Notes: a model not told the origin generated them from the sequence alone. A stretch of 58,299 nt of DNA from a virus (IMGVR_UViG_3300021225_000305:1-58299), one strand, 5' to 3'; shown: positions 15,746 through 21,360, numbered from the stretch's first letter. A program made the numbers and translations.

Positions 15746-15787
15746 ATGATTTATTTTTTATTGGTTTCTACAAATATACAAAAAGAA

Positions 15788-16718
15788 TTATAAACTTTTA
15801 CAATTCCTCTCGAAAAAAGTTTCTAACAATTCTATGTGTTGTTTATGTTCCTCCTTAATCTCCCTCCCGTCAGGGCTGAAAATCCTCTTGAGAATCTTCC
15901 TCCTCTGATCGATATCCATAGGGTAGAGAGCAAGGTCAAAGGCTAGGTAAGCCTTAGGATCATTTTTCATCCCCGTCTTATTCAGTATGGCAAGAACCCT
16001 TTTGTGAAGGTTGTCCAGCTCCATGTACTTCTCGGCACGGGTTCTATATGTCTTACTACGAGAAAAGTTTGCCATTGTTTCTATCTTCAGTTCGTTCTAT
16101 ACATTTCTTAATTGCTCTCCAATCTTCCACATCCTCCTCGTTAAATTTAGGTGTGCCGAAGAAGAGAGACATCATCCTACTTATATGCTTCTTGTCATAA
16201 TCTGGACGAAATACCAGGAGAGCCTTGCGAGGGTTTATATTCCTCTCGGCAAAATACAAGAACCATTTAGCCCTTTTTTTGTGTACTGATTTCATCGATT
16301 ACCTTTTCAATTTTCTCACGAAGGGATTCCACCTCGTCACAATACTCGATCAACCCCTGTAGTAATACTTCGATCTTCTCCCTGTTCTTCAGGGGCTTCT
16401 TTCTACCTACAAGGTCGTTCATATACCTAGTCGAGAGACCTTTCTTCTTGCATATATAGTACATATTTATTACGTCTGCATGAGACCTACAAGACGAAAT
16501 AAGGTAGTCTAAAACGTGCTTGGGTATCTCTTGTTGCACTATCTTATTTTCTTCTTCGCCCCCCTTAGCATTATTCTCTCTTACTATCATCATCGGCCCG
16601 TTTTTTTTCGGTTTGTGCGTCTGAACGCCAGACGTTTTCTGAAGTTATGCAGAAAGATACTTAACCTGATTCGTGTGTACATCAGGTCTAATTTCCTATC
16701 GGTTTCTTGCTTAATCAT
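15788..16718 (-). CDS. Four small hypothetical ORFs (15788-16075, 16056-16295, 16267-16593, 16590-16718)
   Basis: Overlapping operon downstream of a TATATTTG element (16767-16774); no recognisable motifs. Confidence 0.5.
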
Positions 16719-16782: not shown

Positions 16783-16820
16783 AAAAAAAGGGAATAGGCA
16801 ATTAAGCCTACCCCCTCTTT
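16783..16820 (-). terminator. Intrinsic terminator ending the early small-gene operon
   Basis: Minus strand AGAGGGGGTAGGC-TTAATT-GCCTATTCCCT followed by a T run. Confidence 0.75.
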
Positions 16821-16843
16821 CGTTAACCAATAAACACCACGAA

Positions 16844-19438: not shown

Positions 19439-19496
19439 GGTTAATACGAGAGGTTCACACCCCTCGTTTCGTCCAATCAGGACTCGTCAGTTAACC
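19439..19496 (-). ncRNA. Type I hammerhead ribozyme (HHR1)
   Basis: GGTTAA-CTGACGA-GTCC(TGATT)GGAC-GAAA-CGAGGGG(TGTGAA)CCTCTCG-TA-TTAACC: full catalytic core and three stems. GUA cleavage triplet; cut between 19445 and 19444. Confidence 0.9.
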
Positions 19497-19837
19497 TAGA
19501 ACTCGATAAAGTACTCAGGGTTGAAGGTGTATTGCTCCCCTTTGAACTCAGGGTTGTACACTAGCGTTCCCTCCTCGTTAAGCTTCATCCCTATGCACTC
19601 CTGAGTGAACTTCATGCACATGGCACCCACTAGAATCCTTGCACTCTCTTTGTCCATGGCAGTGATAATCTTAGCTACCAAGGTTGGTTCAGGACTTTCG
19701 ATATACTCGCCCATGTCTTCTCTTGTAGCGACTATCTCTCCCTCGAAGGCGTGTACCAAGGCGTTAGTAATTGTCTCGAAGGTGTACGGGTTATTGTTAA
19801 GCCCGATGTTTAATTGAAATACGTTCATGTTTTCCAT
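19496..19837 (-). CDS. Putative SAM lyase (T3 SAMase-like)
   Basis: G-x-Y (MGEY), E-x-T (PEPT), QEC and GTLVY occur in the same order and similar spacing as T3 SAMase GCY/EEKT/QDC/AGLVY; early-gene position. Confidence 0.6.
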   Translation of the reverse strand: MENMNVFQLNIGLNNNPYTFETITNALVHAFEGEIVATREDMGEYIESPEPTLVAKIITAMDKESARILVGAMCMKFTQECIGMKLNEEGTLVYNPEFKGEQYTFNPEYFIEF

Positions 19838-19855: not shown

Positions 19856-19907
19856 GGTTTATACGGGGCGAACCCCGTTTCGAGTACTCAACTCTCATCA
19901 GTAAACC
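19856..19907 (-). ncRNA. Type I hammerhead ribozyme (HHR2)
   Basis: GGTTTA-CTGATGA-GAGT(TGAGT)ACTC-GAAA-CGGGG(TTCG)CCCCG-TA-TAAACC: perfect core with a UUCG-capped stem III. GUA triplet; cut between 19862 and 19861. Confidence 0.92.
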
Positions 19908-20096
19908 TTATATTACCTTAGATTCAATTAGGTTGAAATAGTCCATGTAAAGGTTGTGAAATATCTCATTAGCCTCTTCTGTGTAATACTTTCCGTCCTC
20001 TTCCCAAATTACTATTTTATCCGTATACACTCTCTCAAGGTGTAAGGAAGCTAATTCAGAGGCAAGGTCTTGTGCGTTGATTGTTCTAGTAAACAT
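19908..20096 (-). CDS. Small acidic protein, first ORF of the early operon; paralog of 18266-18466
   Basis: TINA.DLASELAS.HLER....VIWEE.G..YTE.A...F...Y..Y..LIES shared with 18266-18466. Confidence 0.7.
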   Translation of the reverse strand: MFTRTINAQDLASELASLHLERVYTDKIVIWEEDGKYYTEEANEIFHNLYMDYFNLIESKVI

Positions 20097-20118
20097 AGTT
20101 GTGTGTGTTAATTGGTTA

Positions 20119-20180
20119 GCGAAACGTAGGGACTCGAACCCCTAGGTCTCTCTCACGAGCAAACCTCTCCGAGCGTTTCA
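20119..20180 (-). ncRNA. tRNA-like element (acceptor stem + T arm, no D stem, no anticodon)
   Basis: TGAAACG/CGTTTCG acceptor, TAGGG-GTTCGAGT-CCCTA T arm, and a GTGA-tetraloop hairpin in place of the anticodon arm. Confidence 0.6.
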
Positions 20181-20191
20181 GTGTTTCCGAT

Positions 20192-20203
20192 ATGTCAAAG
20201 AAC
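20192..20203 (-). promoter_or_regulatory. boxA-like antitermination motif
   Basis: GTTCTTTGACAT resembles rrn boxA (TGCTCTTTAACA-type) and sits in the leader of a long operon. Confidence 0.5.
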
Positions 20204-20406
20204 TGCGGTCTTTATAGTCTTTTCCGTGTATGACTAGTAATCTCTCCGTGTAACGGCTGTAGCATAGGTGATTACAATCTCTATCTAACTAAACTCTCTC
20301 TCCTTAACTACCTCTATTCGAAGAACACTCTTGTGTATATCTGATATCTCATCAGTGCGGGTAGTAATCAGTAAGTAAGCTTTCGTTGTTGTTCCGTTGA
20401 ACACTG

Positions 20407-20439
20407 CAAATGTATGGTAATTAAAAAGTTTATTCCAAA
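20407..20439 (-). promoter_or_regulatory. Early-operon promoter (Bacteroidota consensus)
   Basis: TTTG (20436-20439), 21-nt spacer, TACATTTG (20407-20414). Confidence 0.75.
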
Positions 20440-21360
20440 TTTATTTTCAAAGATGTTCTAAAACACTGATTAGTTCGTCACGAAGAAATGCGGCTTACAG
20501 AGCGTCATGACATCTCAAAACATCAGTAAAATAAGGGAAAATAAAAATAAATGAAAAAAAAACGAAAATATTTTTGATTGTAGGAATGATAAGGGTTTGA
20601 GGTATGACATGGAGAAAAATGTGAGGATTGGCGTGACTTGTAGAAGGTCACAAAAGACTGGAGATTGCGGTTTTTTCGTGCCTGTTTTGAGTGCTTGTTG
20701 TTCACCTGAGGCTGTTTTTCGGGTTCGTCTCAGGTATTTTTATATGGCAAAATGTGTATTGAATTGTGCCGATAATTGGGGGCGAAATGTTGGCGTGTTT
20801 GTGTGTGAATTTCAGGTAGTGTTTCTAGGGTTATTTGGTGCCGTGTTTGAATGTCATTTATCGGCATGGATGAGACGTTATGTTTTGGGGTTCATTGGAG
20901 GGTTATAAGAGAGGTTCATGCATGAGATAATATGTAGGCATGGGAGAGAGTAATACGCCACGTTTACGGGCTTGTTTCGAGGTCATGCTTTTGCCGAGGT
21001 GTGAGCTTCGGGATCCCAATATTGATGCGGGCTGTAGCGATTTATGGTGCCGAGAGATTGAGGCTTGGCTTGGGCTTTTCTCAGTGTTGACGGGCGATGC
21101 AGAGCTTTGGGGCTTGGCTTTTGGCTTCAATTGACCACAGACGGGGGTGGGTTCGCAAACACGCATTTCCTGGAGGCGAGCGGGGTGGCCTGGTGTGTGG
21201 GAAACCCCTCTCTTTAAACAGCTTGCCCTCTCCCTAAACATCTCGCCCCTTTCCCCTTTCGATCTGGGTTTTCGTTCCCCTTGATTCCCTTTTCGTGGCC
21301 ATTTATTTACCTCTGAGTAAAACTTTTCCCGTATTTTGTTAACTGGGACGTAAAAAAGGT
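20440..21360. other. ~0.9 kb non-coding, strand-skewed region between divergent promoters; possible genome end, packaging site or origin
   Basis: G/T-rich + strand, a GGGGTGG pair near 21143-21190, then a C/T-rich tract at 21205-21330; the ORFs here look spurious. Confidence 0.4.

What the first reader, a model, noticed from the sequence alone, without database searches (positions are those of the whole stretch)
20096..20439. rRNA-operon-like early leader: promoter, boxA-like motif and an anticodon-less tRNA mimic before the first gene
Seen: a consensus promoter, ~200 nt of leader, GTTCTTTGACAT, then a 62-nt element with a 7-bp acceptor stem and a GTTCGAGT T-loop arm but no D stem and a GNRA-capped hairpin instead of an anticodon. 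It is followed by TAACCAATTAACAC..ATG, the same AACCAA leader that follows both hammerhead cuts. Inference: the mimic is an RNase P/RNase Z processing signal making a third cut in the same transcript, or a decoy for tRNA-targeting defences. The boxA would recruit host Nus antitermination for the 3.6-kb operon.
Basis: partly seen in the sequence, partly recalled or inferred. Interest (0 to 1): 0.7.

Follow-up and report, generated by a model that had tools for sequence, protein, structure and literature searches.

The report
Anticodon-less tRNA-like element after phage boxA
A phage of Bacteroidota starts its early operon with a host-type promoter, a copy of the host ribosomal-RNA antitermination signal (boxA) and a conserved tRNA-shaped RNA with no anticodon, which most likely lets host tRNA-processing enzymes cut the leader off the first messenger.

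Summary
It holds a Bacteroidota-type promoter (20439-20407), a ~200-nt leader, a boxA-like 18-mer (20204-20187) and a 62-nt element (20180-20119).

- **Element structure.** It has a 7-bp acceptor stem, an 8-nt linker, a GNRA-capped hairpin and a canonical T arm. ARAGORN and Rfam call no tRNA. In 7 distinct homologues from 9 viral contigs, 97% of pair cells are paired and 6 of 20 pairs show compensatory changes. RNAalifold finds the same fold independently.
- **boxA.** The motif matches the one that peaks upstream of 16S and of 23S in Bacteroidota rrn operons. It is the best hit in the window to a matrix built from those operons.
- **New here.** The same 18-mer is common in viral contigs. In 35 of 89 distinct contexts a true tRNA gene starts within 150 nt downstream, against 0 of 33 for a reversed control. 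The element starts 6 nt after it, in that tRNA slot.
- **Leader.** What follows the element (UAACCAAU, 22 nt to the AUG) matches what two hammerheads leave (23-24 nt).

Best reading: a tRNA-derived processing signal for RNase P and RNase Z behind a Nus-type antitermination leader. Cleavage itself is not shown.

The parts
20407..20439 (-). Bacteroidota-type promoter: -33 TTTG (20439-20436), 21-nt spacer, -7 TAcaTTTG (20414-20407)
   Evidence: 7 matches against 2.18 expected. Conserved in the window, L003, L004, L005 and L006, at 28-293 nt from boxA.
20205..20406 (-). Long untranslated leader. It varies between relatives and is absent in L004. It holds a weaker second boxA-like site (core 20326-20318).
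   Evidence: Leader alignment. The matrix scan gives 10.1 bits at 20332, rank 6 in the window.
20216..20235 (-). Small hairpin AGUC(20235-20232)/GACU(20219-20216) about 12 nt upstream of boxA, a boxB-like position
   Evidence: RNAalifold on 6 sequences gives 4 pairs, 3 of them with compensatory changes. The energy is weak at -2.64 kcal/mol.
20187..20204 (-). boxA-like 18-mer AGUUCUUUGACAUAUCGG (core GUUCUUUGA 20203-20195)
   Evidence: The core is invariant in 7 of 7 homologues. It is the top hit in the window (21.3 bits, next 16.2) to a matrix built from 56 Bacteroidota rrn-leader sites. In rrn operons the motif peaks before 16S and before 23S.
20119..20180 (-). Anticodon-less tRNA-like element: acceptor stem, 8-nt GG-containing linker, GNRA hairpin, T arm and discriminator C
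   Evidence: 97.1% of pair cells paired, 6 pairs with changes on both sides; 96.6 bits, the only strong hit in the window; one copy in each of 5 related records.
20097..20118 (-). 22-nt A/C-rich leader UAACCAAUUAACACACACAACU, the proposed 5' UTR left after a cut behind C20119
   Evidence: It starts in the same way as the hammerhead products. A homology boundary lies at 20108 in metagenome contigs.
19908..20096 (-). First early gene (62 aa, no family found)
19856..19907 (-). Type I hammerhead 1. The cut lies between 19862 and 19861 and leaves UAAACCAAUUAA, 24 nt before AUG 19837.
   Evidence: RAGATH-1-hammerhead, 29.4 bits, below the gathering score of 56.3. Core and stems.
19439..19496 (-). 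Type I hammerhead 2. The cut lies between 19445 and 19444 and leaves UUAACCAAAUAA, 23 nt before AUG 19421.
16784..16821 (-). Terminator-like hairpin with a U run, the end of the 3.6-kb early unit

Best explanation
The early operon of this uncultivated Bacteroidota phage is transcribed from a host sigma-type promoter into a long untranslated leader.

The leader carries a copy of the host-clade rrn boxA. As in rrn operons, this would load NusB/S10 on RNA polymerase and protect the untranslated stretch and the 3.6-kb unit from premature, Rho-type termination (inferred).

Six nucleotides behind boxA sits a tRNA-derived element. It keeps only what the tRNA end-processing enzymes read: a 7 + 5 bp acceptor/T-arm helix, a canonical T loop and a GG-bearing linker. 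It has lost the D stem and the anticodon.

Host RNase P would cut at its 5' side (20181/20180). RNase Z would cut after discriminator C20119. This removes the boxA leader and gives the first mRNA a 22-nt 5' UTR that begins UAACCAAU. The two downstream hammerheads create the same kind of end by self-cleavage (inferred).

Shown here: the structure, its conservation, the identity of the boxA motif, the tRNA slot and the matching leaders. Inferred: the cuts and the Nus action.
For: 1. The fold is real.
- RNAalifold predicts the three helices without guidance.
- On 7 distinct sequences, 97.1% of 140 pair cells are paired, against 59.3% or less when partners are slid. Six of 20 pairs change on both sides, and at most 3 of 500 shuffles reach any measure.
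- 4 of 5 isolated 62-mers fold this way as the minimum-energy structure.

2. It is single-copy and fixed in position.
- The covariance model finds one hit in the window (96.6 bits, next 12.2).
- It finds one in each of 5 of 5 related records and one more in L354 (91.4 bits).
- The leader upstream of it and the first gene downstream both vary.

3. The tRNA slot.
- In 35 of 89 distinct contexts a same-strand tRNA starts within 150 nt downstream, often 7-16 nt away. In 24 of 89 a tRNA ends within 150 nt upstream.
- A reversed control pattern gave 42 loci and 33 distinct contexts, with 0 next to a tRNA.
- The element starts 6 nt after the 18-mer.

4. boxA.
- GTTCTTTGA with at most 1 mismatch is present in 67 of 99 Bacteroidota 16S leaders.
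- Its rate per 150 nt is 0.49 just before 16S and 0.45 before 23S. It is 0-0.03 in most bins elsewhere, up to 0.08 inside the rRNA bodies and 0.11 in sparsely sampled bins beyond 5.1 kb.
- It is the top matrix hit in the window.
- It fits the published consensus sequences AUGAUCUUUGAAA for B. subtilis and UGCUCUUUAACA for E. coli (PMC13753749, passages read).

5. The same product.
- The trailers after the element and after 2-3 hammerheads per relative all begin U(A/U)AAC(C/U)AAU and lie about 20-27 nt before an AUG.

6. The host clade.
- All 80 terminase matches (below 60% identity, best 26.4%) are phages of Flavobacteriia, apart from one unclassified record.
- RNase Z scores above the curated cut-off in 4 of 5 Flavobacteriia genomes.
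- Only 12 of 154 rrn-spacer tRNA genes encode CCA. A CCA-less, RNase Z-type substrate is therefore the norm in this clade.
Against: - No RNA 5' or 3' ends were seen. The only public runs holding the region are assembled contigs, which cannot show ends.
- Folding energy is not exceptional: z = -0.3 to -2.35.
- The homologues are close (92% mean column identity) and related by descent. Only 1 of 7 acceptor pairs covaries, and 11 of 20 pairs never vary.
- The outermost T-stem pair is A-A in 4 of 7 sequences, and pair 1-72 is U.G.
- The three loop-proximal hairpin pairs never vary, so a larger loop cannot be excluded by covariation.
- Whether RNase P of Bacteroidota accepts a D-armless substrate is unknown.
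- RNase Z would leave a 5' phosphate, whereas hammerheads leave a 5' hydroxyl, so the ends are not chemically identical.
- NusB/S10 binding was not tested.
Confidence: 0.55

Rival explanations
1. Processing happens at the 5' side only. RNase P removes the boxA leader, and the tRNA-like fold stays on the mRNA as a structured 5' cap that protects it from 5'-end-dependent decay. It would sit just outside the ribosome footprint.
For: The 21-24 nt spacing between the structured element and the AUG is kept in all relatives. This fits 'stay clear of the ribosome' as well as it fits 'cut here'. The element itself is well conserved.
Against: The trailer starts with the same U(A/U)AACCAAU as the hammerhead products, whose 5' ends are known by chemistry to lie exactly there. 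Homology between mosaic relatives breaks inside this trailer, at 20108, rather than at the element.
Confidence: 0.15
2. It is a trans-acting tRNA mimic. The released 62-nt RNA, possibly with CCA added, binds or titrates a host or defence protein that recognises the acceptor/T-arm part of tRNAs. Processing would only be the way to make it.
For: The T loop is conserved in full, and the GG in the linker is invariant, which would allow an elbow-like fold. This goes beyond what a simple cut site might need. The element is expressed at the very start of the early operon. mascRNA gives the only weak family resemblance.
Against: No anticodon loop is present. From recall, not from any call, that loop is the target of most known tRNA-directed nucleases. 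No partner gene was identified, and 7 of the 10 early-operon proteins scanned match no PHROGs or Pfam family; the other 3 have only weak or function-unknown matches. The same slot holds ordinary tRNAs in other phages.
Confidence: 0.15
3. It is a decaying tRNA pseudogene that hitch-hikes with a promoter-boxA-tRNA module and has no function of its own.
For: The boxA-tRNA modules are common. The linker GCUCGGAGAG looks like a collapsed D arm (my inference). These phages carry almost no tRNAs: 1 hit in 5 records.
Against: Compensatory changes keep all three helices. The T loop and linker are invariant while the flanking leader and the first gene are replaced. The element is present in 9 of 9 contigs of the lineage that reach this locus.
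Confidence: 0.08
4. It is a self-cleaving ribozyme of an undescribed class, or a diverged hammerhead, that takes the place of a hammerhead at the first junction.
For: It occupies the same position relative to the AACCAA leader as the hammerheads. In the window alone, GGUUUGCUCGUGAGAG resembles GGUUUACUGAUGAGAG of hammerhead 1.
Against: The resemblance is lost in L003, which has GACCU instead of GGUUU. CUGANGA and GAAA cores are absent. The alternative GGUU/AACC pairing of the minimum-energy fold is broken in L003. No ribozyme family matches at E up to 10. The conserved loop is a textbook T loop.
Confidence: 0.04

Closest known systems
t-elements of plant mitochondria (tRNA-like structures that set mRNA ends through RNase P and RNase Z; PMC1920247, seen only as a search listing with the start of the abstract)
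   Same: A tRNA-shaped, non-decoding element next to a coding region. It is proposed to borrow the tRNA end-processing enzymes to define mRNA termini.
   Different: This one lies in a bacteriophage, sits behind a boxA antitermination signal and works beside hammerhead ribozymes. Cleavage has not been shown here.
mascRNA / MEN-beta tRNA-like RNAs (Rfam RF01684)
   Same: About 60 nt, an acceptor plus T arm, no working anticodon, and excision from a longer transcript by RNase P and RNase Z (the excision is recalled knowledge).
   Different: Those are eukaryotic. Only the T arm aligns, at 12.7 bits against a gathering score of 42.5, so the element is not a member.
rrn operon boxA / Nus-factor antitermination leader, and phage lambda nut boxA
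   Same: It has the same core as the motif found before 16S and 23S of Bacteroidota, a promoter-proximal untranslated position, and a small covarying hairpin just upstream.
   Different: It drives a protein-coding phage operon. In other phages it drives tRNA arrays. No N-like protein is known here, and binding of NusB/S10 was not tested.
Non-tRNA substrates of bacterial RNase P: phage P1/P7 C4 antisense RNA precursor, 4.5S RNA, tmRNA and polycistronic mRNAs (review PMC11143913, passages read)
   Same: Phage and cellular RNAs that present an acceptor-like helix to RNase P.
   Different: Those lack a full T arm or are processed for other ends. None is described as paired with boxA and hammerheads.
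Type I and RAGATH-1 hammerhead ribozymes in phage intergenic regions (Rfam RF00163, RF03152)
   Same: They are neighbours in the same transcript and produce the same kind of leader. I infer a functionally equivalent 'punctuation' role.
   Different: The element has no hammerhead core and would depend on host enzymes.

Membership tests
canonical tRNA | 7-bp acceptor stem closing the molecule | tested here: met
   UGAAACG/CGUUUCG is paired in 7 of 7 sequences, with one C-G to U-A compensatory change.
canonical tRNA | T arm: 5-bp stem and 7-nt loop UUCRANY with G53-C61 | tested here: met
   GG-UUCGAGU-CC is invariant, except UUCGACU in L354. Two stem pairs covary, and the outermost pair is A-A in 4 of 7.
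canonical tRNA | D stem-loop | tested here: not met
   Only an 8-nt linker, CUNGGAGA, is present. RNAalifold predicts no helix there.
canonical tRNA | Anticodon arm with a 7-nt loop | tested here: not met
   The hairpin has 8 bp and is capped by GUGA or GUAA. A 7-nt loop would require opening invariant C-G and U-A pairs.
canonical tRNA | Called by tRNA finders or by the Rfam tRNA model | tested here: not met
   ARAGORN gives 0 calls, and only the relaxed -mt -ps mode calls it. RF00005 gives no hit at E up to 0.01 in 4 of 5 element-bearing records, and its single hit in G004 lies about 60 kb from the element.
tRNA-like processing element (t-element / mascRNA type) | Acceptor/T-arm coaxial helix of about 12 bp with a T loop, without decoding capacity | tested here: met
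tRNA-like processing element (t-element / mascRNA type) | Cleavage by RNase P at the 5' side and RNase Z at the 3' side | not testable with these tools
   Only assembled contigs of public runs were available.
boxA (Nus-factor antitermination signal) | Sequence match to the boxA of the host clade's rrn operons | tested here: met
   It is the top-scoring site in the window (21.3 bits) for a matrix of 56 rrn-leader sites. The reference motif lies before 16S and before 23S. Caveat: the reference sites were collected using the phage's own 9-mer with at most 1 mismatch.
boxA (Nus-factor antitermination signal) | Position in a promoter-proximal untranslated leader | tested here: met
   It lies 28-293 nt after the -7 motif in 5 of 7 sequences (window plus 4 of 6 related loci).
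boxA (Nus-factor antitermination signal) | Binding of NusB/S10 and termination-resistant transcription | not testable with these tools
hammerhead ribozyme (the two neighbours) | CUGANGA, GAAA and UH cores with three stems | tested here: met
   Stems II and III differ between relatives while staying paired.
hammerhead ribozyme (the two neighbours) | Rfam gathering score | tested here: not met
   29.4 bits against 56.3 (RF03152) and 18.3 bits against 34 (RF00163).
hammerhead ribozyme (the element itself) | Catalytic core | tested here: not met
   CUCGUGA stands in place of CUGAUGA and no GAAA junction is present. The resemblance is lost in L003.

The most novel reading that the evidence does not exclude
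Phages of Bacteroidota widely copy the host rrn boxA to make their untranslated RNA units termination-proof, chiefly tRNA arrays. One lineage has turned the tRNA behind boxA into a pure, anticodon-less 'cut here' signal. Together with hammerheads, it forms a mixed punctuation system, part host enzyme and part ribozyme, that gives every early mRNA the same U(A/U)AACCAAU 5' end. In addition, the excised 62-nt tRNA-like RNA may act in trans on a host tRNA-binding or defence protein.
Probability: 0.35. Interest if true: 0.8.

Novelty: new variant of a known kind. Interest (0 to 1): 0.68.

Why it matters
If the cuts occur, this would be a bacterial-virus counterpart of organellar tRNA punctuation. 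It is used side by side with self-cleaving ribozymes in one transcript, which makes it possible to ask why a phage picks a host-dependent or a self-sufficient cutter at a given junction.

The boxA result is useful in its own right. It gives a working consensus for Bacteroidota (GUUCUUUGA, 2-3 nt, UAUUG). It also shows that many uncultivated phages place the motif at the heads of tRNA arrays and inside them. That points to Nus-type antitermination as a common phage strategy in a phylum where transcription elongation control and Shine-Dalgarno-independent translation are poorly understood.

The shared U(A/U)AACCAAU leader is a candidate translation or stability signal that can be tested directly.

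Tried and rejected
- **Alternative fold.** The minimum-energy fold of the 91-nt stretch pairs GGUU with the AACC of the trailer. This is rejected because L003 has GACC there while AACC stays.
- **Degenerate hammerhead.** The similarity to hammerhead 1 is confined to the window sequence, so this reading is rejected.
- **attP or a tRNA 3' fragment.** Rejected because both acceptor strands are present and covary, and the element pattern has no hit in 185,579 species genomes.
- **Known RNA families.** None was found.
- **Close cultured phages.** None was found by blastn.
- **Metagenome scan.** By eye, most of the 120 hits looked like ordinary tRNAs, many of them tRNA-Ser(GGA)-like with a variable arm. 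It added no family member. It only suggested that the hairpin sits where a class II variable arm sits. Whether the hairpin descends from an anticodon arm or a variable arm could not be decided.
- **Pattern.** It returned three genuine tRNA-Leu genes.
- **Public runs.** No run holds more than 0.31 of the sampled words, and all are assembled contigs. No RNA ends, depth or expression can be read from them. The one metatranscriptome contig (X20) covers 20170-20102 joined to gene 2, which shows a relative lacking gene 1 and hammerhead 1. It shows neither processing nor transcription.
- **Early-operon proteins.** Of 10 scanned, 7 match no PHROGs or Pfam family. Two match PHROGs families of unknown function, and one has two Pfam hits below the curated cut-offs.
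- **Literature.** Searches for boxA in Bacteroidetes or Flavobacterium, for boxA with phage tRNA, and for tRNA-like elements with hammerheads in phages found no paper describing this arrangement. This covers only the open-access library searched. Supplements were not read.

Full report
**What the window is**

The window is a 58,299-nt viral contig, estimated 88% complete. It encodes a large terminase, portal, primase-helicase, RecT and exonuclease. blastn finds no close cultured relative.

The terminase has 80 distant matches, all below 60% identity and the best at 26.4%. They are 68 Flavobacterium, 8 Cellulophaga, 2 Tenacibaculum and 1 Maribacter phages, plus 1 unclassified record. The host is therefore most likely a member of Bacteroidota, probably Flavobacteriia.

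The finding lies on the minus strand, at the head of a run of small genes that ends at a terminator-like hairpin at 16821-16784. Of the 10 proteins of this run that were scanned, 7 match no PHROGs or Pfam family. Two match PHROGs families of unknown function, and one has two Pfam hits below the curated cut-offs.

**Checking the observation**

- The promoter is of the Bacteroidota type: TTTG, 21 nt, TAcaTTTG (20439-20407). Such sites occur 7 times in the window against 2.18 expected.
- Other promoters of this type in the window have leaders of only about 20-35 nt. The ~200-nt leader here is therefore unusual.
- GTTCTTTGACAT lies at 20203-20192.
- The 62-nt element is 20180-20119. It has a 7-bp acceptor stem, the 8-nt linker CUCGGAGA, a hairpin of 8 bp with one bulged G capped by GUGA, one spacer base, a T arm with loop UUCGAGU, and discriminator C. 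No CCA is encoded.
- ARAGORN calls nothing in the window. Only its relaxed mitochondrial mode returns exactly 20180-20119.
- Rfam gives no hit at gathering score. On the short stretch it gives only local T-arm matches.

**Is the fold real?**

Energy alone does not say so. The z-score is -0.3 for 91 nt, and the minimum-energy fold there is a different one. For the isolated 62-mers the z-scores run from -0.5 to -2.35, and 4 of 5 adopt the three-helix fold.

Comparative evidence does support the fold.

- A protein search and DNA patterns brought in homologous loci from 8 further viral contigs. This gives 7 distinct versions of the element.
- RNAalifold, without guidance, predicts the acceptor stem, the hairpin and the T stem.
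- Counting my structure on the 7 sequences gives 97.1% of 140 pair cells paired, against at most 59.3% when the 3' partners are slid. Six of 20 pairs change on both sides, and at most 3 of 500 shuffles reach any of the five measures (one search agrees for an earlier set).
- Each helix has at least one compensatory pair.

There are limits. The sequences are close relatives (92% column identity), 11 pairs never vary, and the outermost T-stem pair is A-A in 4 of 7.

The alternative fold and a resemblance to hammerhead 1 both fail in L003, where GGUUU is replaced by GACCU with a matching change on the other strand.

A covariance model of the core finds one strong hit in the window (96.6 bits, next 12.2). 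It finds one in each of 5 of 5 related records and one in L354. The element pattern has no hit in one genome for each of 185,579 prokaryote species.

**The boxA-like motif**

I fetched 120 Bacteroidota loci that contain the 5' part of 16S. I then took the 99 leaders with at least 200 nt upstream.

- GTTCTTTGA is among the commonest 9-mers there, present in 32 of 99. With at most one mismatch it is present in 67 of 99, mostly 80-210 nt before 16S.
- Along 123 operons the motif rate per 150 nt is 0.49 just before 16S and 0.45 in the spacer just before 23S. It is 0-0.03 in most other bins, up to 0.08 inside the rRNA bodies and 0.11 in sparsely sampled bins beyond 5.1 kb.
- This is the distribution described for boxA in E. 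coli and Bacillus. The core also fits their published consensus sequences (PMC13753749, passages read).
- A matrix from 56 distinct rrn sites, scanned over both strands of the window, puts the phage site first (21.3 bits, next 16.2). A weaker second site in the same leader ranks sixth.

One caveat applies. The reference sites were gathered with the phage's own 9-mer, so the core match is partly built in. The positional peaks in rrn operons and the shared downstream UAU(U/C)G are independent of that.

The promoter-to-boxA distance ranges from 28 nt (L004) to 293 nt. The long leader is therefore an optional insert. A 4-bp hairpin with three compensatory pairs lies just upstream of boxA.

**The tRNA slot**

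One variant, AGTTCTTTGACATATTGG, accounts for 77 of 114 instances.

- Of 89 distinct contexts, 35 have a same-strand tRNA gene starting within 150 nt downstream, many at 7-16 nt. These usually head arrays of 2-14 tRNAs.
- In 24 of the 89, a tRNA ends within 150 nt upstream.
- A control scan with the reversed pattern found 42 loci and 33 distinct contexts. None lies next to a tRNA, and 2 have any tRNA in the locus.

The element in the window starts 6 nt after the 18-mer. It therefore sits where ordinary tRNA genes sit in many other phages.

The element's model also gives 56 weak hits (14.6-22.3 bits) in 100 of these 113 loci. The two I saw printed lie on tRNA-like sequences.

The lineage itself is almost free of tRNAs, with one RF00005 hit in 5 records, far from the element. 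From this I infer that the element descends from a tRNA of a promoter-boxA-tRNA module. Its linker GCUCGGAGAG may be a collapsed D arm.

**The shared leader and the hammerheads**

Two type I hammerheads follow genes 1 and 2. Their cores are intact, although their Rfam scores are below gathering.

- Their chemistry places the new 5' ends at 19861 (UAAACCAAUUAA, 24 nt before the AUG) and at 19444 (UUAACCAAAUAA, 23 nt before the AUG).
- A cut behind the element's discriminator would leave UAACCAAUUAA, 22 nt before the AUG.
- Relatives have 1-3 hammerheads per fetched locus, most with 2-3. Stems II and III differ freely, but stem I stays fixed at GGUUUA/UAAACC or GGUUAA/UUAAC(C/U). The trailers are alike.
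- The leader sequence therefore seems constrained for its own sake. A primary transcript from the promoter at about 15790 also begins near AAACCAAUAAA.
- Metagenome contigs break homology at 20108, inside this leader, with different first genes beyond it. One contig joins 20102 to 19839, so the element stands directly before gene 2. The leader appears to act as a module boundary.

**Mechanism**

The best-supported reading has three steps.

1. The host polymerase starts at the promoter.
2. boxA loads NusB/S10 and makes transcription of the untranslated leader and the operon termination-resistant, as in rrn operons.
3. RNase P and RNase Z recognise the acceptor/T-arm helix and excise the element. 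This removes the leader and creates the standard 5' UTR.

RNase Z scores above the curated cut-off in 4 of 5 Flavobacteriia genomes tested. Only 12 of 154 spacer tRNA genes in the Bacteroidota loci encode CCA. CCA-less substrates are therefore normal in that clade. RNase P is known to process non-tRNA phage and cellular RNAs (PMC11143913, passages read).

None of the cuts, nor Nus binding, could be observed here. Public runs holding the region are assembled contigs only. I put 0.55 on this reading. The rivals are a 5' cut only with a protective cap, a trans-acting mimic, a functionless relic and a new ribozyme.

**Comparison and novelty**

In function the element resembles the t-elements of plant mitochondria (PMC1920247, seen as a listing only) and mascRNA. 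It is not a member of any Rfam family. It fails the tRNA definition on the D arm and the anticodon loop.

Searches of the open literature found no description of boxA at phage tRNA arrays in Bacteroidota, or of a tRNA-like element combined with hammerheads in a phage operon. Supplements were closed and subscription journals are not covered. I rate it a new variant of a known kind.

Noticed in passing
L262-L374 (viral contigs), e.g. L263:5690, L268, L273:2375, L301, L372: The rrn-type boxA 18-mer AGTTCTTTGACATATTGG is widespread in uncultivated phages. It sits at the heads of tRNA arrays and inside them, often 5-20 nt after a TAnnTTTG promoter motif and 7-16 nt before the first tRNA.
   Followed up: partly
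L262:2949, L275, L276, L278, L286, L298, L313, L319, L322, L329 and others: At least 15 loci share a near-identical non-coding-looking stretch around the 18-mer (...gggagactgggaacaacagagaag-18-mer-taaaatggtgttttggaagccgacacgtgc...). This may be a conserved phage RNA behind boxA.
   Followed up: no
L029:9414-9470: A different mini tRNA-like shape was read by eye: acceptor GGAGAG/CUCUCC, a GCAA-capped hairpin and a T arm GAGGG-UUCAAAU-CCCUC. It lies at the end of an ORF, about 20 nt before the next ATG, in a metagenome contig.
   Followed up: no
window 20216-20235 (-): A 4-bp hairpin about 12 nt upstream of boxA has three compensatory pairs among 6 relatives. This is a boxB-like position, and the energy is weak.
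   Followed up: partly
window 20205-20406 (-) against L004:913-941: The roughly 200-290-nt leader between promoter and boxA is built of conserved blocks with large insertions and deletions, and it is missing altogether in L004 (28 nt instead). Its role is unknown.
   Followed up: partly
window 20108 and 19465-19497: Metagenome contigs keep homology only to the element plus boxA module (ending at 20108) or only to the hammerhead 2 core, with unrelated sequence on either side. One contig joins 20102 to 19839, so gene 1 and hammerhead 1 are absent. The RNA elements mark cassette boundaries.
   Followed up: partly
window 15757-15795 (-): A TAtaTTTG promoter motif is followed by AGAAACCAAUAAAAAAUAAAUCAU-AUG. 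The AACCAAU leader therefore also occurs on what looks like a primary 5' end.
   Followed up: no
window 20440-20900: A stretch of about 460 nt with no convincing ORF lies upstream of the early promoter, between divergent gene blocks. It could be a genome-end or origin region.
   Followed up: no
G004:C1:64539-64638: The only RF00005 hit in the lineage is a 100-nt tRNA match (35.1 bits) in the complete 67.7-kb relative, far from the element.
   Followed up: no
L142-L261 (Bacteroidota rrn loci): A working Bacteroidota boxA consensus emerges: GUUC(U/A)UUGA, 2-3 nt, UAUUG. It is present both before 16S and, after the spacer tRNAs, before 23S.
   Followed up: yes
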